Shown here: positions 2,015 through 55,019 of the stretch, one piece after another
Layout: each line of letters starts with the position of its first letter
How positions within the stretch are numbered: position 1 is the stretch's first letter
From: Bacteroidota bacterium
GTDB lineage: Bacteria; Bacteroidota; Ignavibacteria; UBA10030; SZUA-254
DNA: 64,000 nt
Assembly: GCA_044449065.1 (NCBI GenBank)
Contig: JBIOHP010000003.1
Location: 68,076-132,075, forward strand
Direction of reading: 5' to 3'
Made by a program: the position numbers and the translations under genes
Notes under the pieces: generated by a model
Databases searched by the model: none
What the model was told of the DNA's origin: nothing
Seen by the model: only the letters and a program-made list of their open reading frames with translations

Positions 2015-2446
2015 AGTATATATTTCCTCTATTTAATAATTTTGCGCGTTTTCATATATTGTGTTTTACGTTCCTTCTCAGGTTAACTGTCGAAGTTTTT
2101 ATTGAGATCATTTCTTATATGGATATGAAAAATACCACGATAAACAGCTCGAAAGAGCTTACCACGGCTCTATTATTACCCACATGGGTATTTTAGAAAA
2201 TATAGTCAAATGATGCCTGAATTCCAATATCATTACTATTAATGAAGCTCTTCCCCTCTTATAATCCCGAAATTGCTTGAAATTCCACATAGTGTATGGT
2301 GATGATCATCATAGTGGGAATAACGGTTACCATTGCGCTGAAAATATCAAGAAATAATGGTTATACGCCTGGCAGGCGATGACCAGGTTTGTGTTTTACA
2401 CGATTTGTCAATACTTTGGATAAACTTTCAAAAGGTTACAACACGA

Positions 2447-3166
2447 ATGGAAAATAAACTGTCTATTATACACGTGGTAATGAGCGTTGTGCTGGGAGTC
2501 AGCATTATTATTTCTGCAATCATCTTCAGCAAGGCATTCATCACAGCGCGCAGGGGAGACCGGATCGTAAATGTAAAAGGACTTGCCGAGCGTGAAGTGG
2601 ACGCCGATGTAGCTATATGGCCTATCACGTTCACGGTGACAGGCAACGATTTGGGCGCCCTTCAGAAATCCATCGATGGTAATCGCGATATAATTGCGGG
2701 CTATCTCGCCGGCGCCGGATTTACCGCAAGCGAGATATCTCAATCAATTCCAAAAATCAGGGATAATCAAGCTGAGGTATACGGCAAAGATCAACAAAAC
2801 AAATTCCGGTATATTGCCCTGACGACGGTCTTGCTGAGATCGAATAAGGTAGCGCTGGTGAAACAGGCGATGGAAAATGCGGGCGTGATGGTCAGCAAGG
2901 GAGTCGTGGTTGTGCAGGACTGGCAGAGCAAGAATGAATTTATGTTCACCGGTTTAAATAAAATTAAACCCGAGATGATAGAAGAAGCGACTGTGAATGC
3001 AAGGAACGCAGCGGAAAAATTTGCAAAGGATTCCGGCAGCAAGTTAGGCAGGATTCGTTCGGCAACGCAGGGACTGTTTACGGTGACCGATAGGGATATC
3101 AATACTCCCGAAAAGAAAAACGTCAGGGTGGTTACAACCGTTGAGTATTATCTTGTGGATGAGTAA
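2447..3166 (+). CDS. SIMPL/DUF541-like periplasmic protein (YggE-like)
   Basis: The ORF track begins at 2357, but the MENKLSIIHVV... start at 2447 gives an N-terminal hydrophobic signal or anchor. The sequence pattern resembles the SIMPL/YggE family. The assignment is from memory of the family, not from a search. Confidence 0.5.
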   Translation: MENKLSIIHVVMSVVLGVSIIISAIIFSKAFITARRGDRIVNVKGLAEREVDADVAIWPITFTVTGNDLGALQKSIDGNRDIIAGYLAGAGFTASEISQSIPKIRDNQAEVYGKDQQNKFRYIALTTVLLRSNKVALVKQAMENAGVMVSKGVVVVQDWQSKNEFMFTGLNKIKPEMIEEATVNARNAAEKFAKDSGSKLGRIRSATQGLFTVTDRDINTPEKKNVRVVTTVEYYLVDE

Positions 3167-3191
3167 ACCCTGCTAACCCCGGCATTGTGTG

Positions 3192-4065: not shown

Positions 4066-4983
4066 ATGCAAATGAAACAATCTTTGATTCTCTGGGTAGT
4101 TGCCTTTATCATTACCGTACTCTCGGCGTTGTATCAATTCATGACGGGTCCATCATACCCGGCAAGAGGAAGTTTGCAATTTAACGGGAAACAAATTTCC
4201 TATACGTTGAATAGAAGTCATGCCGGATCGACAAATTGTCCAGTCGTCGTTACCACGAACGACGAGTCGGTTCAGGGCGTTCTTGAGTGGAAACGGTATA
4301 AAAGCGATGATCCCTGGACGAGCCAGAAAATGACCTTTCAAAATAATACTCTTGTTGGCGAACTACCAGCTCAACCTCCGGCGGGCAAGTTGGAGTATCA
4401 TGTCAAACTATCGGATGGAACTGAAAGTCAAAATCTTCCTGAAAACGAGAGTGTGGTAGTGCGTTTTCACGGGGATATCCCGCCGTATATTCTTATTCCA
4501 CATATCCTCGCAATGTTCGGGGGGATGTTCCTTTCCGCCCGCACCGGAATTGAATCGCTGCGGAAAAATCCCAATCTGAAAAAACTCATCATCGTAACGG
4601 TGATGTTATTGCTCGTCGGGGGATTCATCCTCGGACCAATTGTGCAGTGGTTTGCATTCAACGCTTTCTGGACGGGCTGGCCCCTCGGTCACGACCTCAC
4701 CGATAATAAGACTGCTGTTGCCATTGTTGCGTGGATCGTTGCGCTTGCCATGCTTAAGAGATCGAAAAAACCGCACCGCTGGGCTTTGGGCGCAGCCATC
4801 GTTACGCTCGTTGTGTACCTCATTCCCCACAGCGTTTTGGGATCGGAAATCGAGTATAAAAAAGTTGAACAGAATACGACAACTCTTCACACCGTGAACG
4901 AACGGGCGGCAAATTTATGTACCCGGCAATCGAGAATGCATCCTCGTTTGAATTTATATACGGCGAGTGATTTTAACGGATAA
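4066..4983 (+). CDS. Hypothetical integral membrane protein
   Basis: 305-aa ORF. It has an N-terminal TM segment, a roughly 130-aa soluble segment, then four or five hydrophobic helices. No family was recognised. Confidence 0.45.
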   Translation: MQMKQSLILWVVAFIITVLSALYQFMTGPSYPARGSLQFNGKQISYTLNRSHAGSTNCPVVVTTNDESVQGVLEWKRYKSDDPWTSQKMTFQNNTLVGELPAQPPAGKLEYHVKLSDGTESQNLPENESVVVRFHGDIPPYILIPHILAMFGGMFLSARTGIESLRKNPNLKKLIIVTVMLLLVGGFILGPIVQWFAFNAFWTGWPLGHDLTDNKTAVAIVAWIVALAMLKRSKKPHRWALGAAIVTLVVYLIPHSVLGSEIEYKKVEQNTTTLHTVNERAANLCTRQSRMHPRLNLYTASDFNG

Positions 4984-5003
4984 TACACCCAAGGAATTAT
5001 CGT

Positions 5004-6422
5004 ATGGCTAACCCGGATGAAATGATACGGAGGGCGAAGAAAGCCGCCCGCGCATTCAGAGAATTGGATCAGAAACAAACCGACCGTATCGTGCGGAGCG
5101 TATTTCTTGCGGCGATGAAAAACCGCATTCCTCTTGCAAAGATGGCGGCGGAGGAAACAGGTCTCGGCGTCTGGCAGCATAAGGTCATAAAGAATATTAT
5201 CGCAAGCCAATTGGTGTATGAACATATCAGTCCTCATAAAACTGTCGGAATAATCTCGGAAGATCCCCTTTCGGGCGTTATCGAGCTTGCGCAGCCGATC
5301 GGTCCTATTCTGGCGTTAGTGCCGGTGATTAACCCAACCTCGACGGTTATCTTTAAATCGCTCATCACGATGAAGACCCGCAATCCGGTAATCTTCAGCA
5401 CCACTGCGGCGGCTAAAAATTGCGTAGCGGAAACAGCGCAGATTTGCTACGACGCCGCCATTGCAGCCGGCGCACCGGAGCATTGCATCCAGTGGCTGAC
5501 CAAACCGAATCTGCTGACGACGAAGGAACTGATGAGCCATAACGGTTTGGCGCTCATCCTGGCGACAGGAACCGGCGAAATGGTGAAAACGAGCTATAGC
5601 TCCGGAACGCCGACAATCGGAGTCGGTGCAGGGAACGTGCCGGTGTACATCGGCACATCAGCCGATATCCCTTTTGCGGTGCAAAGTATTCTCTCTTCGA
5701 AAACGTTTGATAACGGCTCGATTTGCGCGAGCGAACAGGCGGTGGTGGTGAAGCGAAATTCCGCCGATCAACTGATTGCAGAGTTCAAAAAACAAAACGC
5801 GTATTTCCTCACGCCTCCCGAGATTGAAAAAGTGGGCCGCATCGCCTATGATAAAAATAAAAATGTGATGAGCGCCGCCGTTGTTGGGCAATCGCCCCAT
5901 CGCATCGCGGAAATGGCTGGTATTCAAATTCCCGCTGAAACCCGGGTGCTCATCGCGATACTCGATACGGTTTCGCGCGATTGTCCTCTCTCCGCGGAAA
6001 TCCTCGCTCCAATTCTCGCCTTTTATATAGAAGAAGATTTTGAAAAATCCATCGAACGGTGCAGCGAGATCACGCGATTCGGCGGGTTAGGTCACACAGC
6101 GGTAATCTATTCCAACAACCCGGAGCGGATTGAATACTTCACGCAACACATGGATGTCGCGCGCATCCTGGTGAACACTCCTTCAACCCAGGGAGCGCTG
6201 GGGGGGATGTTCAACACGCTGCCGCCCTCGTTTACGCTGAGCTGCGGAACCGGCGGAAAGAATAGCACAACCGGAAATATTTCCACCCGCCATCTCCTGA
6301 ATGTCCACCGCATCTGTCGCCGGCGCATTAACGAACGGTGGATGAACGTGAATCAGGAAAAATATCTTGATGAATCAATGGGCGCTGAGGAATTGGAAAA
6401 AGAGTATTACAAGAACTCGTAA
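5004..6422 (+). CDS. CoA-acylating aldehyde dehydrogenase (AdhE N-terminal domain-like / EutE-PduP family)
   Basis: 472 aa of ALDH-superfamily sequence. It resembles the acetaldehyde dehydrogenase half of AdhE (ELAQPIGPILALVPVINPTSTVIFK, GTGEMVKTSYSSGTPTIGVGAGN, FDNGSICASEQ with a catalytic Cys). Confidence 0.7.
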   Translation: MANPDEMIRRAKKAARAFRELDQKQTDRIVRSVFLAAMKNRIPLAKMAAEETGLGVWQHKVIKNIIASQLVYEHISPHKTVGIISEDPLSGVIELAQPIGPILALVPVINPTSTVIFKSLITMKTRNPVIFSTTAAAKNCVAETAQICYDAAIAAGAPEHCIQWLTKPNLLTTKELMSHNGLALILATGTGEMVKTSYSSGTPTIGVGAGNVPVYIGTSADIPFAVQSILSSKTFDNGSICASEQAVVVKRNSADQLIAEFKKQNAYFLTPPEIEKVGRIAYDKNKNVMSAAVVGQSPHRIAEMAGIQIPAETRVLIAILDTVSRDCPLSAEILAPILAFYIEEDFEKSIERCSEITRFGGLGHTAVIYSNNPERIEYFTQHMDVARILVNTPSTQGALGGMFNTLPPSFTLSCGTGGKNSTTGNISTRHLLNVHRICRRRINERWMNVNQEKYLDESMGAEELEKEYYKNS

Positions 6423-6760
6423 TTTTGATTTAACTCCAGCTCGGCGGTCATTGTCCACGAGTGTGTCCGAGAACTCGTAGTAGCGCGTCACCAGACCCGC
6501 GCGAATGCCCAATCGGATTCATAATAGCCGCCGATCCGTTGATCGGGTACTACAAAACATGGTTATCGGACAGACTCCCACACCATGACCGAGAAAAAGC
6601 AAAATAATTTTTATCCATTCACCCGCTTTATACGACCACACCTTGCGAGTGGTTGTCGCTCGTGCCTGAGAAACAATTGATACTTTAGCATGTGCCTGGC
6701 AACATATAAAACCATTGAATAGAACAAACGGTATTATTTCAAGTGTACCGGTTCTGCCAG

Positions 6761-6849
6761 TGAAACCCCCTGTCCCCCTTTGACCCGCCAGAATGAACTT
6801 GTCGGGCTGGCGGGTCAAAGGGGGACCGCCGAAGGCGAGGGGGTTTCAT
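6761..6849. repeat. Long imperfect inverted repeat forming a hairpin (31-nt and 42-nt arms, 16-nt loop)
   Basis: Left arm tgaaaccccctgtccccctttgacccgccag; right arm ctggcgggtcaaaggggga[ccgccgaaggcg]agggggtttca. The arms are reverse complements of each other apart from a 12-nt insertion. Confidence 0.6.
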
Positions 6850-7100
6850 ATGGTGAACAATTTATTTTCATATCTGGCGGTCATGGTCCACACCATGACC
6901 GGAATCATGCAAAAAGTGAACGAGACTCAACCTGCTTATTCACCTATCCCATTTGGATTATATATTCATTTCTGAATAATAATTAATCTAATTTGTTTGT
7001 TCTATGCGATTCATACCCATTCAGGAGAGAGACTTATGAAACAAAAAATCCTTAAATTATGTTGATGTTAATACACGTTCATTAAACCAAAGGATTTATT

Positions 7101-9752
7101 TTGAAAAAATTATTTCTGCGGATAAAAATACCCATAAATTCGTTCCCATTCCTCATTTTTTTGTTTGTTAACGGTTCGTTATTCGTTCCTTTGTATGGAC
7201 AAAATTTCCTAACCAATACCCGCAAGCTGCCTATTGTTACGGGGGAGGCAACTATCCACCATTACGAATATGTTCTTCCCGATGGCTGGATTTACCGGTA
7301 CGACATCGATAACGGACATACGCTCATCGATAGCTTCAGCATTCCAACTTCGCAGGGCACGCGGGGCGTTTCGGTCAATCCCCCTACCGGCATGATGTAT
7401 ATCAGCTATCGCGGCGATGGCGGCTTCCGCGGCAATGGCTCCATCCTGCAATTCAATCTCCTCACCAATACTGTCGGATGGAATAAAAGCTACTCGCATG
7501 GGATTGACAGCCATGAAGCATCCCCGGATGGCAAGATAATATATAGTCCCGATGGAGAACTCTCCGGCGATGGAAAATGGTATCTCATCAACGCGTCCGA
7601 TGGCAGTGAAACAGGTGTTACTATTAATACATCGACTCAGGGACCGCATAACACCATCGTCAGTTTGGATGGCACGCGGCTGTATATGGGCGACCGCGAT
7701 CCGTATAATGTCGGCAACGATTATTTCTACGTTGCAAACACAGCGAACGATTCGGTAATTCAAAAGGTCGGTCCGCTTATCAGGGGAATCAGACCATTCA
7801 CGATTAACGGCAAAGGCACAATCGCATATATCACCATCACAGGTTTTCTTGGATTTCAAGTCGGCAGCATCACTACCGGTAATGTTCTCTTTACCGTTGA
7901 TCTGACGAAAATGGGTTTTACCATCAGCCGCTGCTTTACCGATGGTTTCCCCGGCGGAAATTGCCAGACAAGTCACGGCATCTCGCTTTCACCGGATGAG
8001 AAAGAGATTTATGTCATCGATTCGCCGAACAGCTATGTGCATGTGTTTGATGTAAGCGGGGTTGAGAGCGGCACCGCGCCGGTAAAGATCGCCGATATTC
8101 ATTTGAACCACCCCTTCTTAGGTCAGGCGTCGAGCTGCGCGTATGATTGTTTACAGATCGGCTGGCTGCAGCACAGTCTTGACGGCAGGTATGTCTATGT
8201 CGGCGATTGCGGAGATATAATAGAGACGGCGACGCATTCGATCGTCGGCTTTATACCCGCGATGCGCAACACGAGAAAGATAATTGAAATAGATTTCCAA
8301 AACGGCAGCCCCATAGCCACAAGCACCCGGCAGGGAATAGGGTATGTGAGAGGCAATTCCGCGCCTTCGAGTCCGCTATTATCTAATCCTGTTAATGGCG
8401 CCACGGGTGAACCGACGAATATAACATTAAGCTGGAATAAAGCAAACGGCGATTCAATGTACCGTGTGCAGGCGGGAACTGATTCTAATTTTACTTCTAT
8501 CGTTATCGATGATTCGGCATTGGTTGACACATTCAAGCAAATCCCATCCTTATTGAATGCGACCTCATATTTTTGGCGGGTTCGAGCAAAAAATGTAAAC
8601 GGATTAAGCCCCTGGTCGCAGACCTGGAAATTCACAACTACTGCGTCGTCGCTTCCGGCGCCTAGGTTGGTATCGCCGGATAGTTCCTCAACGAACATGC
8701 CTACACTGGAAGTTCTCCACTGGAATAATGTTGCGGCGGCGGATTCATACAGAGTACAACTTGCTGCCGGTTTCGCCTTCGTTTCCCTCGAGAAAGATAC
8801 CGTCATCGCTATCGATTCAGTCATGATTGATAGCTTACTCCCTTCCAGTAAATACTATTGGCGTGTTGCTGCAAAGAACAGCCAGGGATTAGGTCCATGG
8901 TCTGAAACTTGGTGGTTTGCCACCCAGCGGCGTTGGGTTTCAGTGAACGTTTCACTCACGCATGGATGGAATATGGTTTCCGTTCCGGTAATTCCAAGAG
9001 ATTCATTGGCTGCTGCCATATTTCAAAATTCCTATTCAAGCGTTTATGGATACAGGGGCGGGTATGTCTCCGATGACACGCTTATCAATGGCGCCGGTTA
9101 TTGGGTAAAGTATCTGCGGGACACCAGTTTGTCCATAAGCGGATACGATATCGTTTCTGATACATTCAATGTTCTTGAGGGTTGGAATTTAATTGGATCT
9201 ATCAGTTCACCTTTCCCAACAACAAAAGTAACATCGTTGCCCGGAGGGTTGCAAGCATCCGGATTTTTTAGATATTCAACAGGATACCACCAGGTGGATA
9301 CGCTTCAACCGGGAGTTGGTTATTGGGTCAAGATAGATCAAGCAGGACAATTGATTTTCGCATCATCGAACGCAGCATCAGATTTATTTTCACTGAAAAT
9401 TATTCCAACTAACGAACTTCCCCCAAATCCACCCGACGCAATCGATCAGTCAAAAACCGGGATTCCCGAAAAGTTTTCGCTGGAACAGAATTATCCCAAT
9501 CCGTTCAATCCGACCACGGTATTTCAATATGCATTGCCTCTTGAAGCCATAGTCACATTGAAAGTATATAATGTCCTTGGGGAAGAGGTCGCAACATTGG
9601 TGAACGGAACACAACCGGCTGGTTTTAAATCAATAACATGGGATGGGAGTATGTTATCCAGCGGCGTGTATTTTTATAGTCTCGAGGCAGCCAGCGTTTC
9701 CGATCCGGCAAGATCATTCAGGCAAGTTCGGAAGATGCTGCTGTTGAAGTGA
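7101..9752 (+). CDS. Secreted multidomain T9SS cargo protein: N-terminal beta-propeller-like region, Fn3-like repeats, a duplicated 'GWN...GYWVK' module, and a type-A T9SS C-terminal sorting domain
   Basis: There is a signal peptide. Fn3-like repeats are recognisable (YRVQAGTDSNF...YFWRVRAKNVNGLSPWSQTWKFTT, twice). The C-terminal CTD motif is PNPFNPTT...VYNVLGEEVATLVNG...SGVYFYSLEA...KMLLLK. Confidence 0.8.
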   Translation: MKKLFLRIKIPINSFPFLIFLFVNGSLFVPLYGQNFLTNTRKLPIVTGEATIHHYEYVLPDGWIYRYDIDNGHTLIDSFSIPTSQGTRGVSVNPPTGMMYISYRGDGGFRGNGSILQFNLLTNTVGWNKSYSHGIDSHEASPDGKIIYSPDGELSGDGKWYLINASDGSETGVTINTSTQGPHNTIVSLDGTRLYMGDRDPYNVGNDYFYVANTANDSVIQKVGPLIRGIRPFTINGKGTIAYITITGFLGFQVGSITTGNVLFTVDLTKMGFTISRCFTDGFPGGNCQTSHGISLSPDEKEIYVIDSPNSYVHVFDVSGVESGTAPVKIADIHLNHPFLGQASSCAYDCLQIGWLQHSLDGRYVYVGDCGDIIETATHSIVGFIPAMRNTRKIIEIDFQNGSPIATSTRQGIGYVRGNSAPSSPLLSNPVNGATGEPTNITLSWNKANGDSMYRVQAGTDSNFTSIVIDDSALVDTFKQIPSLLNATSYFWRVRAKNVNGLSPWSQTWKFTTTASSLPAPRLVSPDSSSTNMPTLEVLHWNNVAAADSYRVQLAAGFAFVSLEKDTVIAIDSVMIDSLLPSSKYYWRVAAKNSQGLGPWSETWWFATQRRWVSVNVSLTHGWNMVSVPVIPRDSLAAAIFQNSYSSVYGYRGGYVSDDTLINGAGYWVKYLRDTSLSISGYDIVSDTFNVLEGWNLIGSISSPFPTTKVTSLPGGLQASGFFRYSTGYHQVDTLQPGVGYWVKIDQAGQLIFASSNAASDLFSLKIIPTNELPPNPPDAIDQSKTGIPEKFSLEQNYPNPFNPTTVFQYALPLEAIVTLKVYNVLGEEVATLVNGTQPAGFKSITWDGSMLSSGVYFYSLEAASVSDPARSFRQVRKMLLLK

Positions 9753-35945: not shown

Positions 35946-36140
35946 TCAATTTCTCAGAGCGGGGTCCTCACCTATTGCATTTAACGGACATATAACCCCT
36001 TTTTATCTTATTTCACCCCCCTCCCTCGTGTATTTCATTGGTAAAAATCATGGAATCCACTATTGTCCGCTATAAAACACCTGTCTATATTATTCAGAGT
36101 AAATTATTCTATTTGGAGTATTGGCGACCAGCGACAACCG

Positions 36141-36437
36141 ATGAGCAATGAATTTAAATCACGACAGGTTTTGAACGATGTTAACAAAACGGGATGCATC
36201 ATAGAATTTCAGCTTCCGGAAGAAGCGTCGATTACTCTGAGCATTCTCAATGAGCAGGGAAAAGTCGTTGCTCTAATTATCGAAAAAGGAAAATATCTGC
36301 CGGGTCGGTATGAAATTGCCATAGAAGATAAAAAATACAACGGACAATTCAGTTTTTACCGGCTTTCCATGCAAACGAAGCAAGGAGAAATCGTAGATAC
36401 CAAGAAAATTGTTAGCACTATCCATCCCGCAGGATAG
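36141..36437 (+). pseudogene. CTD-only small ORF: a T9SS C-terminal sorting-domain-like beta-sandwich with no signal peptide or passenger domain. It is either a gene remnant or a stand-alone CTD protein.
   Basis: ...IEFQLPEEASITLSILNEQGKVVALI...GRYEIAIE...GQFSFYRLSMQTKQGEIVDTKKIV follows the same pattern as the CTDs of the three cargo genes in this window. The ORF as drawn (36063, TTG start) has no signal peptide. Confidence 0.35.
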
Positions 36438-36522: not shown

Positions 36523-39500
36523 ATGAAAAAATTATCTATTATTTGCTGCTTAGTGTTGATGATAGTTGCACTACAGAGCTTGTATTCGCAAACTCTTCCC
36601 AATCCGAAGATTACCTCGTCGTTCAATCCCGATAGCAGCTGTATCAATCGGAATACGTCCGGTACGGGCGGTCCCGGTAAAGGTGAATGTCTTTATGCAT
36701 GCGAGAATCATCTCGCAACATATTGCACAAGTTTATCAGCAACCGATACATACTCCTGGACAGTTGTCGGAGGCACCATAGGGGGCAATAGTACCGTAAC
36801 TGGAATTGGACTTAACTGCGTCACAGTTCTTTGGGGACCAGCCGGCAGCGGCAATATTTCCGTGATTGAAACGGATACCAGCGGAAATACGGGCATCGAT
36901 CATGCTTGTGTTAATATCATCAACGCCCCCAAAGCGATTTTCACGCCGACGAGCATCTCTGCCTGTTCCGGTATCCCGGTTAACTTTACCGACGCCTCGT
37001 TGAATGCTATCAGCTATATTTGGAATTTTGGCGATCTGGCGAGCGGCGGTAACAACACCTCGGCGCTGCAAAATCCGACGCACTTATTTTCCGCGCCGGG
37101 CACATACACCGTCACGCTCGTTGTTTTCAATCATTGCGGTTGCAGCGACACCACACACGGAACTGTGACGATTACCAGTCTTTCTGGCCCGAGAATCGAT
37201 TGTCCGTCAACAGTTTGCGCAGGCACAACAAAATGTTATTCAACGCCGGATGGATGTCTGGGAGCGGTTTATACCTGGACCGTTACCGGTGGAACACGGC
37301 TTGCTCCGTTTGGCAGTGTAAATAATATTTGCGTTCAATGGGGCTCTGGAAATCCACAGGGACAGATTACTCTTACAATTACGGGATGCGGTTCCGTGTG
37401 TCCCGGACCGACAACCGTCGATATCCCAATTGTTCCAACCACGACAACAATTATGGGAGGAAGCGTAGCTTGTTATGGCGCCAATTCAGTCTATTCAGTT
37501 CCGGCCTGGCCCGGAGCATGTTACAATTGGACAGTCCCGGCGGGCGCTGCGACGATTATTGCCGGGGACAGCACAAATCATATTCAGGTTCATTGGAATA
37601 CTGTCGGAACATTCACGATTAATGTTTCCTGGCACGACGACCTGCTTGGCTGTGCCCCCGGCAGCGCCTCCATCCAGGTGACCGTAAAGCCGGATTTCGA
37701 TATCATAGGACCAACCGATCCGATATGCCTTAATTCATCAGCTACTTTCACTGCAATTGGTAATCCATTTACGCCATCGCCTAATTTTACCTGGTCTTGT
37801 CCGGGTGGGACGGTGACTGCGGGGCAGGGTACGCAGAGTGCGACCATTCAATTCACATCGCCGGGTCTCCAAACTGTTACCGCAACCCCGATCGGCTCTC
37901 CGAATCCCTATTGCTCGCCGAGTAAAACATTTACGGTAAATGTTGTCATGGTCAATCCTCCCATAAGCATCACGGGACCTGACACTATTTGCGCAAATGG
38001 AACATACACCTATAGCACTCCACCACCCCCATCGGGGTTGGATATCCAGTGGACAGCAACCGGCGGCGTTATCGTGGGTTCAAGCCACGCAAATCCCGTT
38101 TCGGTTACATGGAATCCCATCGGACCGTATTCAATATCGGTGTCGTATGTAAATACCGTCGCGCCATTCTGCTCGTCGACGCCCTTTACACTGCCTGTCT
38201 ATTTGTTCAACGTTCCCAGCATCACCGGAAGTCAAAATGTTTGCATGGATCAGACGTTTACTTACACCGCCGGTGGTTCCCATCCGGCATTGGATTATCA
38301 ATGGTCGATTGTTACTGCTCCCAGCGGACCGACTTCACCGGATGGCAGTATTGTCACGGGGCAGGGCAGCAATTCAGTTTCAGTGCTCTGGCATGGACCG
38401 GGATCCGTAACTGTATATCTCCAACTAACAGTGTGCAGCACTATCATAACACTGCCGATCACTATTAACCCAAAACCGACGCCGACTATTATGATGAGCG
38501 GACAACTCTGTAATCCGGTCATCCTGACTGCAAGCGCCGGATATATATCCTATTCATGGTCGAACGGAGCTTCCGGCAATCCAATCGTAGTCAATACAGG
38601 AGGCAATTATACCGTAACAGTTACGAATGCCGGAGGATGCACAGGCACTGCAACCATCAACGTGCCGACGCCGCCCGGTCCGGTTGCCAGCATATCGACG
38701 CCCGATCCGACTTCGTATTGTCCGGCTACCGCTCCAATTAGCGTTACTCTTTATGCTCTTCAGGGCGCCGGATATACATACCTATGGTCAAATGGATCGA
38801 TACTAAATCCCATCACGGTTACCACACCCGGAACGTATTATGTAACTGTGACAGACGCAAATAATTGTAAATCAGTTTCGAACTCAATAATTATTACTCG
38901 TGGACCCTGTCCACCGCCGAATCCTTGCGTCACCACTGATACAGTCGGTTTCACGTTCGGTATTCCGTCGTGTAATCCTGTCCCTTTTACAGGGGTGTCT
39001 ACACCCGGCGCTACCAATCTGATATGGAATTTTGGCGACCCACTGAGTGGAACGAGTGATACATCAACCTCAACAAATCCGACGCACTCCTTTACCTCCG
39101 CCGGTTACTACACAGTAACGTATAGCGGTACCGGAGCTCCCAATTGTGCCATTGCGGTATCGCATCCGGTCGCCATAACGATAGCGGCGGATTTTAGTGA
39201 TGTTATTGGATGCGCAGGAAGCCCGACGCAATTTACGGATCACTCCACCTTCTTGCCGCCGTATTCGATTACTTCGTACTCGTGGAACTTTGGCGATTTC
39301 ACTTCATCGACATCGCCGAATCCTTCTCACGTGTATGCCCCAGGGACGTATACCGTCACGTTAACCATAACGAATTCGCAATGCACGGTAATGAAGACTA
39401 AGATTATCACGATCAATCCGCTTCCATCAGCCGCGTTTATTCTTCCGCCGATTTCATGCGTTGGAACAGATATTCCGATGAGCGCTGCGGCGTCCAATTT

Positions 39501-42500
39501 GACTTACGCATGGTCATTTGGCGACGGAGCGACTTCCGCCGTGCAGAACACATCGCATGCGTATACAACTCCGGGACCGTATACCGTAACGCTGACCGTT
39601 ACGGATACCGCAGGCGGGGGATGCACCAACACGGTTTCGCAATCGATAACCATCGTTCCTCCGGCAGGGACATGTTTGATTTCCCCGGCGGGAATAGTGA
39701 CTGTTTGTCCAAATCAACTTCCCTACCCCCTGACCGCCCCGCCAGCGTCGTCATATCAATGGTATCTCAATGGACTCCCGGTCGCCGGTCTTCCGGGCAT
39801 CGCACCAACGCTCAATGTTACTGTCGGCGGTAATTACACTGTAGTCGTAACCGATGCGAACGGTTGCAAGTGTAAAACACCTCCGGTGACTGTCGTTGTG
39901 AATCCATCCCCGTTCGCGAATATCACTGTGACACCGGGGCAGCTTGTTTGTCTCGGTTCGGGTTCGAATGCCGTTACCTTATCTACTCCGCCGGGTCCCG
40001 GTTCGTACAAATTTGCATGGACAGAAAACGGAAGTCCGGTTGGCAGTAATTCGAACACGTTTGGCAAAACGTATTCAATCACCGGATCGTATGTCTATGT
40101 AGTAACGGTTACGGATACCGTCACGGGATGTGTGGACAGCGCGAAAATGACTATTAAAGTCTGCAACACTCCGGCTCCGCCAATCATCACACCGTTCGGC
40201 AGCACCAACTTGTGCCAGGGGGATTCTGTAACGCTCATGAGCTCAATCGGACCGCCGTTTATCCTCTGGAGCACGGGACAAACAACGCAAAGCATTACCG
40301 TCTATGCAGCCGGCACGTACATCGTGACATTCAAGGATCCGGGCTGCGGCTGCAAGAGCTCTGCAAGCATTGTGGTGAAAGTTTTCCCGTACCCGGATTT
40401 CAGCTTATTCCCGGTTGATGACAGCACGTGCTGCGATAAGATTTGCGATACCGCACACATCTGCGCGCCCAGGGGGTATCTCGGCTATCAATGGCAATTG
40501 AACGGCGTAAATATCCCGCCGCCGCTTGGCAACTCGGAAGATTTCACACCGCCGGCAAGCGGAAGCTATACATTAATTCTAACCGGTCCGAACGGGTGTA
40601 AAGATACATCAAAACCATATTGCGTAATACTGGAAAAATGCAGCGGGATGTGTGTAACGCCTCCGAAAGATATGGTTGCATGGTGGCCACTCAACGACCC
40701 GAACGGCGGCACGCTCGACACAGAAATTGTCGGCAATCATTATGGAGTGCCTAAACCCGGCGCCATTCATGATTACCCAACATGGGTGACAGGATATGGT
40801 CCCTCTCCCGCGAGCACAGTCACGCTTATCGGAGGAGGAAAAGTCGGAGACGCTTTGTACTTCTTCGGTCAGAACCCAACCAGAGGTTATGTGGATGTCG
40901 CGCATAGTTCCGCGATAACCTTCGCAACCTCCGATATGTCGATCGACGCATGGGTTTACATCCAATCGGACACCACCGGGATTCATCCTATCGTCGAAAA
41001 AATGGCTTTGAGCCCTGTTGGAACCCCTGTTGGGTATCGTTTCTATCTGAACAATGGCATGCTGACGTTTGACGTCGCTTCCGTCTCGCCGTCCGCAAAT
41101 CCGAGCAGTGTTCAGTTCCCGACGCCGTTATCAATCAATAAATGGCACCATGTTGCGGTGACCATGAAGCGCAATTCAAGTCCGCAGCGTATCGTACTCT
41201 ATGAAGATGGTGTGCCAGTGCAGACGACGCCCATCATCAGTATCGGTAATATGTATGAGACAGCGCATCTTCTCATCGGCGGCTCCCAGCTTGCGATAGA
41301 AACCCCGCTGCTCAATATCGCTATTGACGAATTGGAACTCTTCACGCGCGCTCTCGATTCGACCGAGATCTATTCACTCTGGCATGCCGATAGCAAAGGA
41401 AAATGCCGCGCCTGCGATGAAGCATGCACCGGCGTTATCACCGGAACAAAATGGTATGATCTGAATCGCAACGGAAGATTCGATCAGCCGGCGGAGAAAG
41501 GGATCCCGAACTGGAAAATCTCTCTCGTCGTATGCAATGGAAACAATATGCCATCGAAAGATACGATTGCGACCACAACGACAGACTCACTCGGAAATTA
41601 CAGCTTCACCAATCTCTGTCCGGGCGAGTATTGCGTTATCGAACAACATCTCCCCGGATGGAAACAAACCTGGCCTCATGCAGGATTCTATCATGTTCCT
41701 CTCGCCGATAGTCAGGTGATCGGAAATATTAACTTCGGCAACTGGAAGCCGCGGATAAATATATGGAACGGCACTGGAATCGATTCGGTGCATTTCAATC
41801 CGGATTCCGTGTACTATGGCGGAGGAATCCCGTGGCCCATTGTTATAGCGCAATTGAGTCCATACCAGGTTGTCTTTAACGGCATGGTCGATCCGACAAC
41901 CGATTTCAACCTGCGCGGCGCGGTTGGCGATTACAGCATCCGGCGCAGACGCATCGCTAATTTCTCGTTCTCTGAGATAGCGCTCAATGATAACCTCCTG
42001 CCGAACGGTTCCGCAGATTCGGTGACCGTGACCTTAACGCCTGATACAACAATCGGTGTGACGATTGGATTCTTCGATATTACTACGCCGGATAATACGG
42101 TGAGATTCCGCACGTTTAGCGCGGATCAATTCGCCCGCTTGGATCAGGCGCGGCCGGTAGTAATCAGGAGAACCCAAACTACCTTTGCAGGCAATACGGC
42201 AAATCTTGTTGCCCAGCTCTTCCGCCAGGGTGGAAGACCGGTTGTCGGCAAAGCAGGCCAGTCGACGCCGACCGGCAAAGTCGCACCATATCTGGCGCCG
42301 GGAACGCAAATCGACGTCGCTACAACATTCTATTCCAAAACGTTTACGCACACCGCCCCGGCGCATGGGATAGATTTTGATGCGAAGGAGAACCTCATCT
42401 TCAAACTCCAGAAGAGCTTACCCGCGACCAAGCAAAACAATACACTGGTCGCAGATATGCTGGCTCTGGAACTCAATATCCTCTTCAGCGACAAGGGAAT

Positions 42501-43146
42501 AACCCCGCCGGGCTTTGGCGACCTCGTGGTGCTCGACTCGCTGATCACGACAGATCACCGCAGGATCAAGCCGGGATGCACGGTGCGTGAATTAGCCGAT
42601 TCGATCAACAATATTATGACGAACTGGCGCGGAGTTTCCGCGGATATTTACCTGAACGTCGATAACATCCTCGAACAGATCAATAACGCGTTCATGAAAC
42701 CGCTGCCGTTGACGGCTGCGGATACGACGGCATGGCTGCACGGGACGAATTTCCAGTTAGCCGGTGTTGTGCCGCTGGATAATGTTCCGTTCCTGCTGAA
42801 AATATCGAGCGCGGCGGCGAGCGGCAACGCGTCCAATACGCCGAATCATGTTCCGCTGCCATCGGCATTCGCGCTGCACCAGAACTATCCGAATCCGTTC
42901 AACCCGGTAACGGTTCTGAGTTACGATTTGCCTGTGTCCTCGCATGTAACCCTGACCATCTATAATACGCTCGGTCAGGTTGTGAGCACGCTGGTGAATA
43001 ATGTTCAGGACGCCGGTTTCCGGTCCGTTGAATGGAACGGAAATAACATCGCAAGCGGCGTCTACTTCTACCGTATCGAAGCGGTTGGAGTGAACGATCC
43101 CGCAAAAGCATTCACGCAGGTGAAAAAGATGGTGCTGATCAAATAA
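36523..43146 (+). CDS. Giant (2207 aa) secreted adhesin-like T9SS cargo protein with multiple PKD/Ig-like repeats, a LamG (concanavalin A-like) domain, an SdrD-B/Cna-B-like domain, and a type-A T9SS CTD
   Basis: It has a signal peptide. Repeated PKD-like units read WNFGD...NPTH.F...G.YTVTL. The LamG-like segment is SIDAWVYIQSD...GYRFYLNNGMLTFDVAS...WHHVAVTMKRN...VLYEDGVPV. The SdrD-B-like segment is GVITGTKWYDLNRNGRFD...DSLGNYSFTNLCPGEYCV...PGWKQTWP. The CTD is PNPFNPVTVLSYDLP...TIYNTLGQVVSTLVN...SGVYFYRIEA...KKMVLIK. Confidence 0.85.
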   Translation: MKKLSIICCLVLMIVALQSLYSQTLPNPKITSSFNPDSSCINRNTSGTGGPGKGECLYACENHLATYCTSLSATDTYSWTVVGGTIGGNSTVTGIGLNCVTVLWGPAGSGNISVIETDTSGNTGIDHACVNIINAPKAIFTPTSISACSGIPVNFTDASLNAISYIWNFGDLASGGNNTSALQNPTHLFSAPGTYTVTLVVFNHCGCSDTTHGTVTITSLSGPRIDCPSTVCAGTTKCYSTPDGCLGAVYTWTVTGGTRLAPFGSVNNICVQWGSGNPQGQITLTITGCGSVCPGPTTVDIPIVPTTTTIMGGSVACYGANSVYSVPAWPGACYNWTVPAGAATIIAGDSTNHIQVHWNTVGTFTINVSWHDDLLGCAPGSASIQVTVKPDFDIIGPTDPICLNSSATFTAIGNPFTPSPNFTWSCPGGTVTAGQGTQSATIQFTSPGLQTVTATPIGSPNPYCSPSKTFTVNVVMVNPPISITGPDTICANGTYTYSTPPPPSGLDIQWTATGGVIVGSSHANPVSVTWNPIGPYSISVSYVNTVAPFCSSTPFTLPVYLFNVPSITGSQNVCMDQTFTYTAGGSHPALDYQWSIVTAPSGPTSPDGSIVTGQGSNSVSVLWHGPGSVTVYLQLTVCSTIITLPITINPKPTPTIMMSGQLCNPVILTASAGYISYSWSNGASGNPIVVNTGGNYTVTVTNAGGCTGTATINVPTPPGPVASISTPDPTSYCPATAPISVTLYALQGAGYTYLWSNGSILNPITVTTPGTYYVTVTDANNCKSVSNSIIITRGPCPPPNPCVTTDTVGFTFGIPSCNPVPFTGVSTPGATNLIWNFGDPLSGTSDTSTSTNPTHSFTSAGYYTVTYSGTGAPNCAIAVSHPVAITIAADFSDVIGCAGSPTQFTDHSTFLPPYSITSYSWNFGDFTSSTSPNPSHVYAPGTYTVTLTITNSQCTVMKTKIITINPLPSAAFILPPISCVGTDIPMSAAASNLTYAWSFGDGATSAVQNTSHAYTTPGPYTVTLTVTDTAGGGCTNTVSQSITIVPPAGTCLISPAGIVTVCPNQLPYPLTAPPASSYQWYLNGLPVAGLPGIAPTLNVTVGGNYTVVVTDANGCKCKTPPVTVVVNPSPFANITVTPGQLVCLGSGSNAVTLSTPPGPGSYKFAWTENGSPVGSNSNTFGKTYSITGSYVYVVTVTDTVTGCVDSAKMTIKVCNTPAPPIITPFGSTNLCQGDSVTLMSSIGPPFILWSTGQTTQSITVYAAGTYIVTFKDPGCGCKSSASIVVKVFPYPDFSLFPVDDSTCCDKICDTAHICAPRGYLGYQWQLNGVNIPPPLGNSEDFTPPASGSYTLILTGPNGCKDTSKPYCVILEKCSGMCVTPPKDMVAWWPLNDPNGGTLDTEIVGNHYGVPKPGAIHDYPTWVTGYGPSPASTVTLIGGGKVGDALYFFGQNPTRGYVDVAHSSAITFATSDMSIDAWVYIQSDTTGIHPIVEKMALSPVGTPVGYRFYLNNGMLTFDVASVSPSANPSSVQFPTPLSINKWHHVAVTMKRNSSPQRIVLYEDGVPVQTTPIISIGNMYETAHLLIGGSQLAIETPLLNIAIDELELFTRALDSTEIYSLWHADSKGKCRACDEACTGVITGTKWYDLNRNGRFDQPAEKGIPNWKISLVVCNGNNMPSKDTIATTTTDSLGNYSFTNLCPGEYCVIEQHLPGWKQTWPHAGFYHVPLADSQVIGNINFGNWKPRINIWNGTGIDSVHFNPDSVYYGGGIPWPIVIAQLSPYQVVFNGMVDPTTDFNLRGAVGDYSIRRRRIANFSFSEIALNDNLLPNGSADSVTVTLTPDTTIGVTIGFFDITTPDNTVRFRTFSADQFARLDQARPVVIRRTQTTFAGNTANLVAQLFRQGGRPVVGKAGQSTPTGKVAPYLAPGTQIDVATTFYSKTFTHTAPAHGIDFDAKENLIFKLQKSLPATKQNNTLVADMLALELNILFSDKGITPPGFGDLVVLDSLITTDHRRIKPGCTVRELADSINNIMTNWRGVSADIYLNVDNILEQINNAFMKPLPLTAADTTAWLHGTNFQLAGVVPLDNVPFLLKISSAAASGNASNTPNHVPLPSAFALHQNYPNPFNPVTVLSYDLPVSSHVTLTIYNTLGQVVSTLVNNVQDAGFRSVEWNGNNIASGVYFYRIEAVGVNDPAKAFTQVKKMVLIK

Positions 43147-52784: not shown

Positions 52785-55019
52785 ATGAAGCCGTTTGCCT
52801 TAATTATTATACTCGGATTAATTATTTTTAATTCATCCATTCTTTTTACCCAATGGGAATGGCAAAACCCTTACCCGCAGGGTAATACATTAAATATGGT
52901 TCGTTTTATAGACGCCTCGAATGGATGGGCCGTTGGGAACTTCGGTACTATCATCCATACTGCCGATGGAGGCGCGCATTGGGATGTTCAATGGTATGGA
53001 TCCACCGATAATGTACAATCAATTTCTATGGTATCTTCCACCGAAGGTTACGCAGTAGGCGATAACGGAATAGTTGAACATACGACCGATGCAGGCGACG
53101 ACTGGCTTGATTTGACTCCGCCTGTTTTATCGGGTTTAAACGCCGTTCATTTTATCAACTCAACAACCGGCTGGGTTGGCGGCGATCTGATGACGATCTT
53201 GAAAACCACAAATGGCGGTTCATCATGGCAAACGGAAAATGTTGGAAGCGGAAGTATCAACGCATTGTATTTCTTTAATGCCAGCGATGGATGGGCTGTC
53301 GGCACAAGCAACACGATTCTTCACACTACGAACGGCGGCGCGCATTGGACGTCCGTTTCCAGCAGCGCTTCACCAGCTTCATTTCTGAGTATTACATTCT
53401 ATAATTCGCTGATCGGGATTATTACCGGAACGGGCGGTACAGTCTGCCATACAACCGATGGTGGATCAACATGGACTTTAATTCCAACTCCGGTAATTTC
53501 CGATCTTAACGGGACTCTAACGTTGAACGCTGCCGAGTGGTTAGTGGGCGGAGCATCGGGAGTGATACTGCATACTACGAATAGCGGCGTTTCATGGTCT
53601 CTCAATAATATATCGGATGGCCGGGATATACAGACCCTCGCTATGGCAGGATCGAACAGTATCGTCGCCGGTGAATTGGGTGAAATATATAGTTCCTCCA
53701 ACGGGGGTGGATCATGGAACCAATTAGACCAGGGACAACACTTGAGCGTGAATTGGATTGATTTCGCGCCGGGAAGTTTATCGGGGGGAGCAGTTGGGCA
53801 AACAGGTTTGATTGTTACCAGTACCGATGGTGGAACGACGTGGAAAGAAGCAGCGTCTCCCGCTCCGTTGATCTCATGCTACGGTTTAAAATATATCGAT
53901 AGTACCCACGCCTGTGCCGTTGGCGACGCTGGAACAATTCTTCGCACGACAGATGGAACCATCTGGTCAACTGTTTCAAGCCCAACTGCGCAATCTCTGC
54001 TGGGGATTGATTTCAGTGATTTGACAAATGGATGGATCGTAGGCGCTGATTTCAATAGTTTTACCGGTTCGATTCTTCATAGCACTGACGGTGGCGCCTC
54101 CTGGAATATTCAAGTCGCGACAACTACGAATATCCTCTACGGGGTGTCATTTCTCAATGCTACAACCGGTTGGGTGTGCGGCGAGGGCGGCACAATCCTT
54201 CACACCACAGACGGTGGGGGTTCATGGAATCCCCAAACAAGCGGAGTCACGATCGCTCTTTTCTGGATTCACATGAGCGACTTCGTAAATGGTTGGGCAG
54301 TTGGGGAATCAGGAACGGTACTGCATACGACGAACGGGGGAGCCGCGTGGACTTCCGTTCAACATTTAACCACTACAACCCTGTATGGTGTTGCAGCCGC
54401 CTCACCGGACGAAGCTGTCGTCGTGGGAGATAGCGGCATCGTCTTGCACACTTTTGATGGCGGAAGCTCCTGGCAAATGGAATATAGCAGAACTCTTAAT
54501 GGATTGTTTGGCGCAAGCAATAACACTGAAGGTTTTGTCATTTCTGGGGACTACGGCGCGATATTACAGGAATTGAACCCTAATACTAATCCGACGATGG
54601 TAATGGCATCTGGCTGGAATATGATTTCGTTTCCTTTTATACCGCAGGATCCGCGGGTTACAACAATTTTTCCGGATGCGGCTTCGAGCGCATTCATTTA
54701 CAATTCCACGGGATACCACGCCCAGGATTCACTGAAAAGCGGAATGGGATTCTGGCTCAAATTTAATTCAGCCGATTCGGTATTGGTGAGAGGTTCCCTT
54801 GTGTTGAAGGATTCCGTAATTGTTCGCCGCGGTTGGAATCTCATCGGCTCTGTTGGCTCAACGATTCCCCTTTCTGCAATTAGCACGAATCCTTTGGGCA
54901 TTATCGTATCGCCATTTTACGGTTATTCTTCGGGATATGTTCAATCGGATTCACTCTATTTTTCAAAAGCATACTGGGTAAAAACGTCTGCCGCTGGCAC
55001 AGTGTATCTCGGGCATTGA
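52785..55019 (+). CDS. Secreted Ycf48-like/BNR-repeat beta-propeller protein ending in a duplicated 'GWN...GYWVK' module, with no T9SS CTD
   Basis: It has a signal peptide and at least 13 T-x-D/N-G-G-x-x-W repeats (TADGGAHW, TTDAGDDW, TTNGGSSW, TTDGGSTW, and so on). The C-terminal roughly 140 aa resemble aa about 610-750 of the 883-aa cargo protein (GWNMISFP...GFWLKF / GWNLIGSV...AYWVKT). Confidence 0.7.
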   Translation: MKPFALIIILGLIIFNSSILFTQWEWQNPYPQGNTLNMVRFIDASNGWAVGNFGTIIHTADGGAHWDVQWYGSTDNVQSISMVSSTEGYAVGDNGIVEHTTDAGDDWLDLTPPVLSGLNAVHFINSTTGWVGGDLMTILKTTNGGSSWQTENVGSGSINALYFFNASDGWAVGTSNTILHTTNGGAHWTSVSSSASPASFLSITFYNSLIGIITGTGGTVCHTTDGGSTWTLIPTPVISDLNGTLTLNAAEWLVGGASGVILHTTNSGVSWSLNNISDGRDIQTLAMAGSNSIVAGELGEIYSSSNGGGSWNQLDQGQHLSVNWIDFAPGSLSGGAVGQTGLIVTSTDGGTTWKEAASPAPLISCYGLKYIDSTHACAVGDAGTILRTTDGTIWSTVSSPTAQSLLGIDFSDLTNGWIVGADFNSFTGSILHSTDGGASWNIQVATTTNILYGVSFLNATTGWVCGEGGTILHTTDGGGSWNPQTSGVTIALFWIHMSDFVNGWAVGESGTVLHTTNGGAAWTSVQHLTTTTLYGVAAASPDEAVVVGDSGIVLHTFDGGSSWQMEYSRTLNGLFGASNNTEGFVISGDYGAILQELNPNTNPTMVMASGWNMISFPFIPQDPRVTTIFPDAASSAFIYNSTGYHAQDSLKSGMGFWLKFNSADSVLVRGSLVLKDSVIVRRGWNLIGSVGSTIPLSAISTNPLGIIVSPFYGYSSGYVQSDSLYFSKAYWVKTSAAGTVYLGH

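What the first reader, a model, noticed from the sequence alone, without database searches (positions are those of the whole stretch)
8930..9370. Duplicated roughly 65-aa 'GWN(M/L)..P...(S/T)GY...L..G.G(Y/F)W(V/L)K' module shared by two different secreted proteins
The 883-aa T9SS cargo protein (here) and the Ycf48-like protein (54590-55016) each carry the same unannotatable roughly 140-aa region. The region is itself an internal tandem repeat of about 65 aa that starts with GWNM/GWNL and ends with GYWVK-like. In one protein it sits between Fn3 repeats and the CTD; in the other it is the C-terminus with no CTD. This looks like an uncharacterised extracellular domain, possibly carbohydrate- or surface-binding, that has been shuffled between beta-propeller proteins.
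Basis: seen in the sequence. Interest (0 to 1): 0.55.

Follow-up and report, generated by a model that had tools for sequence, protein, structure and literature searches.

The report
Uncurated two-repeat extracellular beta domain
Two unrelated secreted proteins in this window share a real, roughly 140-residue all-beta domain built from two 70-residue repeats; it belongs to a very large family found in bacteria and archaea that no curated database describes, and its function is unknown, though it is probably a binding module.

Summary
Window 8937-9356 (883-aa T9SS cargo protein) and 54585-55016 (744-aa Ycf48/BNR propeller protein) encode the same roughly 140-aa module: 39% identity, BLASTP E=2e-32. 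The module is an internal duplication of a roughly 70-aa unit (profile-profile E=1e-19).

It matches no Pfam or NCBIfam model and no PDB sequence. AlphaFold2 models it with very high confidence (pLDDT 96), and Foldseek finds no significant PDB match; the nearest are weak, small cupin/jelly-roll-like hits.

An exhaustive profile search finds 16,563 cluster representatives. The family is heavily expanded in Ignavibacteria-type MAGs, with several copies per genome. Typical layout is passenger domains, module, Pro-rich linker, T9SS CTD (about 74%). About 20% end at the module, as protein B does.

The module is not part of the secretion signal:
- Three of the four CTD proteins in this window lack it.
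- It also occurs N-terminally, internally and in module-only secreted proteins.
- A cultured methanogen has three clustered genes ending in it.

Best reading: an autonomous, mobile extracellular domain, most likely ligand- or surface-binding. The function is inferred, not shown. This is a new domain family of an ordinary kind, of moderate interest.

The parts
7101..9752 (+). Gene for protein A (883 aa). Layout: signal peptide, unassigned N-terminal region, two Fn3-like domains, module, linker, T9SS CTD. Identical to NCBI MFI5251273.1, 'T9SS type A sorting domain-containing protein', from a Bacteroidota MAG.
8403..8924 (+). Two Fn3-like / Ig-like domains (aa ~435-608) immediately upstream of the module.
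   Evidence: Pfam fn3 E=1.4e-11 (best stretch aa 539-602) and Ig_Rha78A_N at aa 443-514
8937..9152 (+). Module A, repeat 1 (aa 613-684): VSVNVSLTHGWNMVSVP...GAGYWVKY...
9153..9356 (+). Module A, repeat 2 (aa 685-752): VSDTFNVLEGWNLIGSISSP...GVGYWVKIDQAGQLI. It folds confidently on its own (pLDDT 93.7).
9390..9434 (+). Conserved segment 'SLKIIPTNELPPNPP' (family consensus RIRIVPTSE-PPPPP): a short strand plus a polyproline linker. It accompanies the module when a CTD follows and is absent from CTD proteins that lack the module.
   Evidence: Tails of the hits. The tail HMM matches protein A from profile position 8 but the other CTD ORFs only from position 28-32.
9492..9749 (+). T9SS type A C-terminal sorting domain (aa 798-883).
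   Evidence: PF18962 E=9.7e-6 and TIGR04183 E=8.3e-8; in-session CTD HMM E=4e-36
52785..55019 (+). Gene for protein B (744 aa): signal peptide, Ycf48/BNR-type propeller repeats, module at the extreme C-terminus, no CTD.
   Evidence: PF14870 E=2.5e-58 and Sortilin-Vps10 E=2.3e-13; stop codon directly after the module and no CTD remnant downstream
54585..54803 (+). Module B, repeat 1 (aa 601-673): TNPTMVMASGWNMISFP...GMGFWLKF...
54804..55016 (+). Module B, repeat 2 (aa 674-744): KDSVIVRRGWNLIGSVGS...KAYWVKTSAAGTVYLGH, followed by the stop codon.

Best explanation
Identity (well supported): the segment is one copy of a large protein domain family that no curated database describes. The domain is about 140 residues, all-beta, and made of two homologous units of about 70 residues. 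Each unit starts with a G-W-N strand and ends with a G-Y-W-(V/L)-K strand. Each unit can fold alone, and the two together form one compact unit. It is an autonomous, evolutionarily mobile extracellular domain attached to many unrelated passenger domains.

In Ignavibacteria-type Bacteroidota it usually sits just upstream of a conserved strand, a polyproline linker and the type A T9SS sorting domain, as in protein A. It can also end the protein (protein B), open it, be repeated, or make up the whole secreted protein. It also occurs in a methanogenic archaeon.

Function (inferred): it is most likely a non-catalytic binding module, lectin/CBM-like or adhesin-like. It would recognise a common ligand such as a surface or matrix glycan. 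In this way it would hold or position whatever passenger it is fused to on the cell surface, in the matrix or on a substrate, independently of the secretion route. In protein A it would be the last folded domain of the mature protein after the CTD is removed, held away from the anchor by the polyproline stalk.

The confidence value given (0.45) is for the whole statement including the inferred binding function. For the identity part alone I would give about 0.9.
For: Shown:
- Homology of the two window copies and the internal duplication.
- Family size: 16,563 cluster representatives at E<=1e-3.
- No Pfam, NCBIfam or PDB-sequence relative.
- AF2 confidence: pLDDT 96.1 and pTM 0.88 for the pair; pLDDT 93.7 for repeat 2 alone.
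- No Foldseek PDB match at E<=1e-3. The best hits are small cupin/PpnP/cNMP-binding barrels with TMq<=0.49.
- 52 of 72 full-length relatives carry Por_Secre_tail, with 54 different partner Pfam families.
- In 81 genome loci, 64 of 87 module ORFs continue into linker plus CTD, and 17 stop within 25 aa of the module.

Independence from T9SS:
- Only 1 of the 4 CTD ORFs in the window has the module.
- The module shows no profile similarity to the CTD.
- N-terminal, internal and tandem copies exist, as does a module-only secreted protein, P0025.
- Methanogenium cariaci has three clustered genes ending in the module, at E 1e-22 to 1e-25 within the locus and about 1e-17 for a 1.8e9-protein search space.

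Inference for binding:
- Stand-alone module-only proteins argue against a mere spacer.
- The near-invariant residues are aromatic and polar (W, N, S, Y, D, K) and sit at equivalent positions in both repeats. In the G-Y-W-V-K strand, W and K point to the same face.
- The nearest fold class (jelly-roll/cupin-like) is the commonest CBM architecture.
- One relative follows a GH53 catalytic domain.
Against: - No binding has been shown or predicted, and I could not inspect model coordinates to confirm that the conserved W/N/K residues are exposed.
- Partner domains are mostly not carbohydrate-active enzymes, so a classical substrate-targeting CBM role is not supported by partner enrichment.
- The conserved Lys is replaced by Ser in the archaeal copies.
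- The strongly preferred position right before the linker and CTD would also fit a structural role.
Confidence: 0.45

Rival explanations
1. Inert structural spacer or stalk. The module only adds length or rigidity between the passenger domains and the Pro-rich linker plus anchor, as Fn3, PKD or Big domains often do, and has no ligand.
For: The preferred position is directly before the polyproline linker and CTD, with a median of 121 aa from the C-terminus. It follows Fn3 or PKD domains in protein A and in the archaeal proteins. Partner domains are extremely diverse.
Against: - Module-only secreted proteins exist, and so do copies right after the signal peptide.
- About 20% of proteins end with the module, where nothing is left to space.
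- Conservation of polar and aromatic residues across thousands of clusters is unusually strong for a spacer.
Confidence: 0.22
2. Protein-protein docking or oligomerisation domain. The pseudo-symmetric double repeat mediates self-association, or docking onto a partner protein or scaffold (functionally dockerin-like, or like a phage receptor-binding-protein head). This would assemble many different passengers on one surface structure.
For: There are many paralogues per genome carrying one common module on different passengers. A weak Pfam hit to the lactophage RBP head domain has E=0.014-0.023. The two-repeat unit is compact (pTM 0.88).
Against: No cognate partner family was identified. The RBP hit is far below threshold and occurs in only 1 of 18 modules. 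No relatives were found in IMG/VR viral contigs. No multimer modelling was possible.
Confidence: 0.15
3. Part of the secretion or attachment signal. The module would be an extension of the T9SS CTD (a 'long signal'), or, when terminal as in protein B, a new kind of C-terminal sorting domain.
For: 74% of module ORFs continue into a CTD, and a conserved linker motif travels with the module. Protein B has the module exactly where protein A and the neighbouring BNR protein (43593-45752) have their CTD region.
Against: - Three of the four CTD proteins in this window lack the module.
- It has no similarity to the CTD.
- N-terminal and internal copies exist.
- It is present in Methanogenium, which has no outer membrane or T9SS.
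- In characterised T9SS cargo, cleavage occurs in the flexible linker downstream of the last folded passenger domain, so the module would stay on the mature protein (PMC11969387).
Confidence: 0.05
4. Chance or low-complexity similarity; not a real shared domain.
Against: BLASTP E=2e-32 with compositional adjustment. Thousands of homologues. Consistent high-confidence fold prediction.
Confidence: 0.01

Closest known systems
Carbohydrate-binding modules (CBMs) with beta-sandwich/jelly-roll folds, e.g. CBM6/CBM35-type accessory domains of secreted enzymes
   Same: A non-catalytic, all-beta, aromatic-rich accessory domain of about 130-140 aa. It is appended, usually C-terminally, to secreted multidomain proteins; it is sometimes tandemly repeated; one relative follows a GH53 domain.
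   Different: No sequence or significant structural match to any CBM. It is built from two homologous 70-aa halves. Its partners are mostly not glycoside hydrolases. No binding data exist.
Listeria GW modules / bacterial SH3b cell-surface binding repeats (InlB, Ami)
   Same: Tandem repeats of about 70-80 aa with a conserved Gly-Trp, located at the C-terminus of secreted proteins. In Listeria they retain proteins on the cell surface non-covalently, which is the kind of role proposed here.
   Different: No Pfam GW/SH3 hit, and no Foldseek hit to InlB or SH3b structures. The resemblance is a lead recalled from knowledge of the family, not homology.
Small cupins / double-stranded beta-helix barrels (cupin_2, PpnP) and bicupins (vicilin, canavalin)
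   Same: These are the best Foldseek matches of a single repeat (probability 0.7-0.9). Two tandem barrels in one unit recall bicupins.
   Different: E>=0.17, TMq<=0.49 and rmsd 5-6 A, which is not significant. There are no metal-binding His motifs. The context is extracellular and modular.
T9SS type A C-terminal domain (TIGR04183 / PF18962) and the Ig-like domain that precedes it in gingipain-type cargo
   Same: It lies next to the CTD in most family members. Like the pre-CTD Ig-like domain of RgpB, it would be the last folded domain of the mature protein (PMC11969387).
   Different: It is not homologous to the CTD, is optional for CTD proteins, and is found outside T9SS organisms.
Fn3 / PKD / Big-type spacer domains of surface proteins
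   Same: A mobile extracellular beta domain found together with them in protein A and in the archaeal proteins.
   Different: A different family (no Pfam hit). It has a two-repeat build, occurs as stand-alone proteins, and shows much stronger motif conservation.

Membership tests
Any curated Pfam-A (2025 copy) or NCBIfam (release 20) family | Score above the family's curated cut-off over the module region | tested here: not met
   Both full proteins were scanned against Pfam-A and NCBIfam, and 18 isolated modules against Pfam-A. The only hits were Caudo_bapla_RBP (E=0.014-0.023, 15 bits against a 26.7-bit cut-off, in 1 of 18 modules), MucBP_2 (E=0.13) and Sigma54_activat (E=0.31).
T9SS type A sorting domain (TIGR04183 / PF18962) | Sequence match to the CTD profile (motifs B, D, E) at the extreme C-terminus | tested here: not met
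   For the module: hhalign of either repeat against a CTD profile from 87 relatives gives probability 0.3%. For protein A as a whole the feature is met at aa 798-864, downstream of the module. Protein B has none.
Carbohydrate-binding module (CAZy CBM) | A discrete fold within a carbohydrate-active enzyme | tested here: inconclusive
   One relative (P0003) carries PF07745 (GH53) upstream. Among 72 full-length relatives, the top partner families are not glycoside hydrolases.
Carbohydrate-binding module (CAZy CBM) | Demonstrated carbohydrate-binding activity | not testable with these tools
   This needs binding assays with recombinant module.
Listeria GW / SH3b surface-binding repeats | SH3-like barrel fold and a match to the GW/SH3 Pfam models | tested here: not met
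   No Pfam hit. No InlB or SH3b structures appear among the Foldseek PDB hits for the double module or the single repeat.
Cupin superfamily | Significant structural match to a double-stranded beta-helix barrel, plus cupin sequence motifs | tested here: inconclusive
Cell-wall / glucan-binding YG (CW_binding) repeats | Significant match to the roughly 20-aa aromatic hairpin repeats | tested here: not met
   The only PDB sequence hit is a glucan-binding repeat region of alternansucrase at E=0.28, 14 bits. No Pfam CW_binding hit.

The most novel reading that the evidence does not exclude
The module has a previously unseen fold and serves as a surface-retention (lectin-like anchor) domain. It would define a secretion-system-independent way of displaying many different passengers on the envelope, shared by Ignavibacteria-type Bacteroidota and methanogenic archaea. 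In proteins such as B, which lack a CTD, it would be the only element that determines where the protein ends up.
Probability: 0.12. Interest if true: 0.7.

Novelty: new variant of a known kind. Interest (0 to 1): 0.42.

Why it matters
More than 16,000 protein clusters from genomes and metagenomes carry a confidently folded domain that no curated family, solved structure or searched paper describes. The carriers include much of the predicted T9SS secretome of uncultured Ignavibacteria-type bacteria.

Defining it as a family would improve annotation of these secreted proteins. Finding its ligand would show how these organisms, and at least one methanogen, display or retain a wide range of extracellular proteins.

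It is a good target for structure determination and glycan-array screening. It does not by itself reveal a new biological mechanism.

Tried and rejected
1. Known-family assignment. Pfam-A and NCBIfam on the full proteins, and Pfam-A on 18 isolated modules, gave nothing.
2. PDB by sequence profile: nothing; best hit alternansucrase at E=0.28.
3. Foldseek against PDB with the double module and with one repeat: no hit at E<=1e-3.
5. BFVD gave one hit, 'putative hemin binding protein [uncultured marine phage]' (E=5.7e-5, TMq 0.73). I judge this a homologue whose name probably comes from a T9SS CTD (HBP35-type annotation), so it says nothing about function. I could not fetch its sequence.
6. A divergent or duplicated CTD: rejected by hhalign.
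7. A degraded CTD downstream of protein B: rejected. The 567-nt spacer is AT-rich non-coding sequence.
8. Proteins B and 43593-45752 as close paralogues that swapped C-termini: rejected. They share only about 24% repeat-level similarity.
9. A phage receptor-binding origin: no relatives in IMG/VR for the Ignavibacteria-type motifs.
10. Literature: none of the six motif strings searched (GWNLIG, GWNMVS, GWNLIS, GWNLVS, GWNMIS, GYWVK) occurs in any paper of the library. T9SS papers found by keyword do not describe such a module.
11. The first genome scan with the 18-sequence alignment failed because it had no conserved stretch to search with. A 6-sequence alignment worked.
12. The identity of protein A's N-terminal region stays unresolved.
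Full report
**1. The observation**

The window encodes two proteins that carry the module.
- Protein A is 883 aa (7101-9752, + strand).
- Protein B is 744 aa (52785-55019, + strand).

BLASTP gives E=2e-32 with compositional adjustment. Secondary off-register alignments (E=1e-10 and 5e-7) expose an internal repeat.

A six-frame scan finds the GWN[LMIVF] motif followed by a GYW-type strand only at these four places. The spacing is 72 aa in A and 73 aa in B. The four units share 12 invariant columns. With profiles built from 171 family members, repeat 1 and repeat 2 align with hhalign probability 99.2% and E=1.1e-19.

The period is about 70 aa rather than 65. My boundaries are 8937-9356 and 54585-55016.

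**2. The two host proteins and their surroundings**

Protein A has this layout:
- a signal peptide;
- an unassigned N-terminal region of about 400 aa, with only weak SGL/arylesterase hits and no PDB sequence hit;
- two Fn3-like domains;
- the module;
- the segment SLKIIPTNELPPNPP;
- a T9SS type A sorting domain (PF18962, TIGR04183).

It is identical to NCBI MFI5251273.1, 'T9SS type A sorting domain-containing protein', from a Bacteroidota MAG contig of 235,747 bp.

Protein B has a signal peptide and Ycf48/BNR-type propeller repeats (PF14870, E=2.5e-58). It ends at a stop codon directly after the module. The 567 nt downstream are AT-rich non-coding DNA with no CTD remnant.

Protein B is transcribed divergently from a 1334-aa DUF2334/GH42M protein and a GT2 glycosyltransferase. 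Protein A's neighbours (an aldehyde dehydrogenase and PAS/histidine-kinase proteins) suggest nothing.

The window holds four ORFs with a T9SS CTD: 7101-9752, 36045-36434, 36523-43146 and 43593-45752. Only the first has the module.

**3. The family**

The word-indexed protein search found 20 relatives, all carrying the complete double module. I used these to build an 18-sequence alignment.

An exhaustive HMMER search of 1.84 billion cluster representatives with that profile found:
- 16,563 proteins at E<=1e-3;
- 7,489 at E<=1e-10;
- 2,926 at E<=1e-30.

In the best 165, the module lies a median of 121 aa from the C-terminus. The tail is a conserved 'RIRIVPTSE-PPPPP' segment followed by a CTD.

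Of 72 full-length relatives, 52 have Por_Secre_tail. Their N-terminal partners span 54 Pfam families, including Laminin_G_3, Sortilin/BNR/PSII_BNR, FG-GAP, ASH/HYDIN Ig, Fn3, SBBP, Kelch and nucleases. One relative follows a GH53 domain.

A scan of one genome per GTDB species gave 309 confirmed loci. The best 80 are nearly all from uncultured MAGs labelled Ignavibacteriae, Ignavibacteriales, Bacteroidota or (probably mislabelled) Chlorobiaceae. One assembly contributes up to six loci.

In those loci, 64 of 87 module ORFs run on into linker plus CTD. Another 17 stop within 25 aa of the module at a genuine stop codon. The CTD-less architecture of protein B is therefore a recurrent variant of about 20%, not an artefact.

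The two window copies are no closer to each other (39%) than to copies in other genomes (up to 48-50%). This is an old, diversified family, not a recent exchange between A and B.

**4. The module is not part of the T9SS signal**

- Most CTD proteins in the window lack it.
- It has no profile similarity to the CTD.
- Some relatives carry a copy directly after the signal peptide as well as one before the CTD (P0022, P0024).
- One giant protein has five interspersed copies (P0023).
- P0025 is just a signal peptide plus two tandem modules.

A more divergent branch reaches Archaea. 'PKD domain-containing protein [Methanogenium cariaci]' (P0167) and its paralogue P0171 end in a complete double module. 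The Ignavibacteria-derived profile matches them at about 1e-17 for a 1.8e9-protein search space. Their 8-kb contig (GCA_001315945.1) has three clustered genes that each end with the module.

In characterised T9SS cargo, the sortase cleaves in the flexible linker between the last folded passenger domain and the CTD (PMC11969387, read). By inference, the module would remain on mature protein A as its last folded domain, on a polyproline stalk.

**5. Structure**

AlphaFold2 with the 18-sequence alignment gives an all-beta model: pLDDT 96.1, pTM 0.88, 14 strands and one short helix. Repeat 2 alone also folds confidently (pLDDT 93.7, pTM 0.77) with the same strands. Each unit is therefore a self-contained small beta domain, and the pair packs as one compact unit.

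Foldseek against 350,542 PDB chains gives no hit at E<=1e-3 for either model.
- For the pair, the best hits are EF-G/EF-Tu domain II and the thiamin pyrophosphokinase C-terminal domain (TMq<=0.33).
- For the single repeat, the best are small cupins, PpnP and cNMP-binding barrels (probability 0.7-0.9, TMq<=0.49).

BFVD gave a single real match, a 587-aa 'putative hemin binding protein' from an uncultured marine phage (E=5.7e-5, TMq 0.73). It is most likely a homologue whose name says nothing about function. No relatives were found in IMG/VR contigs.

**6. What it most likely does**

Shown: this is a mobile, autonomous extracellular domain that is independent of the secretion route.

Inferred: it binds something. 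The reasons are as follows.
- Module-only secreted proteins, terminal copies and N-terminal copies are hard to reconcile with a pure spacer.
- The near-invariant residues are aromatic and polar (W, N, S, Y, D/T, K). They recur at equivalent positions in both repeats, giving two pseudo-symmetric candidate sites.
- In the G-Y-W-V-K strand, the Trp and the usually conserved Lys must face the same side. This suggests an exposed aromatic-plus-polar patch of the kind lectins and CBMs use.
- The passengers are so diverse, and mostly not carbohydrate-active enzymes, that the ligand is more likely a common surface or matrix component than each passenger's own substrate.

My confidence is about 0.9 for the identity statement and about 0.4-0.45 for the binding function. 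The rivals are:
- an inert stalk (0.22);
- a protein-protein docking or oligomerisation unit (0.15);
- a secretion-signal extension or a new sorting tag (0.05);
- chance similarity (about 0.01).

**7. Comparison with known families**

In function it most resembles CBMs and Gram-positive surface-binding repeats such as Listeria GW modules. In position it resembles the Ig-like domain that precedes the CTD in gingipain-type cargo.

It passes none of the membership tests I could run:
- no Pfam or NCBIfam family;
- no PDB relative by sequence;
- no significant structural match;
- not a CTD.

CBM membership cannot be decided without binding data. None of the six motif strings I searched (GWNLIG, GWNMVS, GWNLIS, GWNLVS, GWNMIS, GYWVK) occurs in any paper of the library.

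**8. Verdict**

This is a real and very widespread protein domain family that has not been described. Its kind is ordinary: a modular extracellular accessory beta domain. It is worth curating as a family and worth a binding screen and a structure. It is not evidence of a new biological system. Interest 0.42; novelty: new variant of a known kind.

Noticed in passing
window 9390-9434; tails of P0021-P0035 and other relatives: A conserved 'RIRIVPTSE-PPPPP' segment (SLKIIPTNELPPNPP in protein A) lies between the module and the CTD. It accompanies the module but is absent from CTD proteins that lack the module. It is probably a short strand plus a polyproline stalk; its role is unknown.
   Followed up: partly
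window 36045-36434, 36523-43146, 43593-45752: Three further T9SS CTD ORFs lack the module: a small 130-aa stop-to-stop frame, a 2207-aa PKD/Laminin_G_3/SdrD_B protein, and a 719-aa BNR/Sortilin propeller protein. The window is rich in T9SS cargo.
   Followed up: partly
window 47338-52641 (- strand), next to protein B: Protein B is transcribed divergently from a 1334-aa DUF2334/GH42M-domain protein, which is followed by a GT2 glycosyltransferase. This could be an exopolysaccharide-type locus, and it might hint at a glycan ligand for protein B. The link was not tested.
   Followed up: no
P0168, P0169, P0007 (relatives from metagenomes and MAGs): A class of small secreted proteins consists of a signal peptide, a Gly-rich motif of about 50 aa of the type 'GGGG..S.G.F.L..S.GQ...G....F.L..GF', and then the double module with nothing else. 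The N-terminal motif is not annotated either.
   Followed up: no
L082 (Methanogenium cariaci BBBG01000037.1) 2308-3180, 4422-5234, 6036-6933: Three clustered archaeal genes each end in the double module, and two of them also have PKD domains. The archaeal copies contain paired cysteines and replace the conserved Lys of GYWVK by Ser.
   Followed up: partly
L073 (JBBTZY010000176.1, labelled 'Patescibacteria group bacterium'): One module locus lies in a MAG labelled Patescibacteria, unlike all the other hits. It is probably a mis-binned contig.
   Followed up: no
L028, L045, L067, L074: Each of these genome loci carries two module-bearing ORFs within about 6 kb, so paralogues are sometimes adjacent.
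   Followed up: no
window 52785-55019: The exact 744-aa translation of protein B is not in the 15-billion-protein collection, although protein A and the neighbouring leuB product from the same contig are. The public annotation probably uses a different start codon.
   Followed up: no
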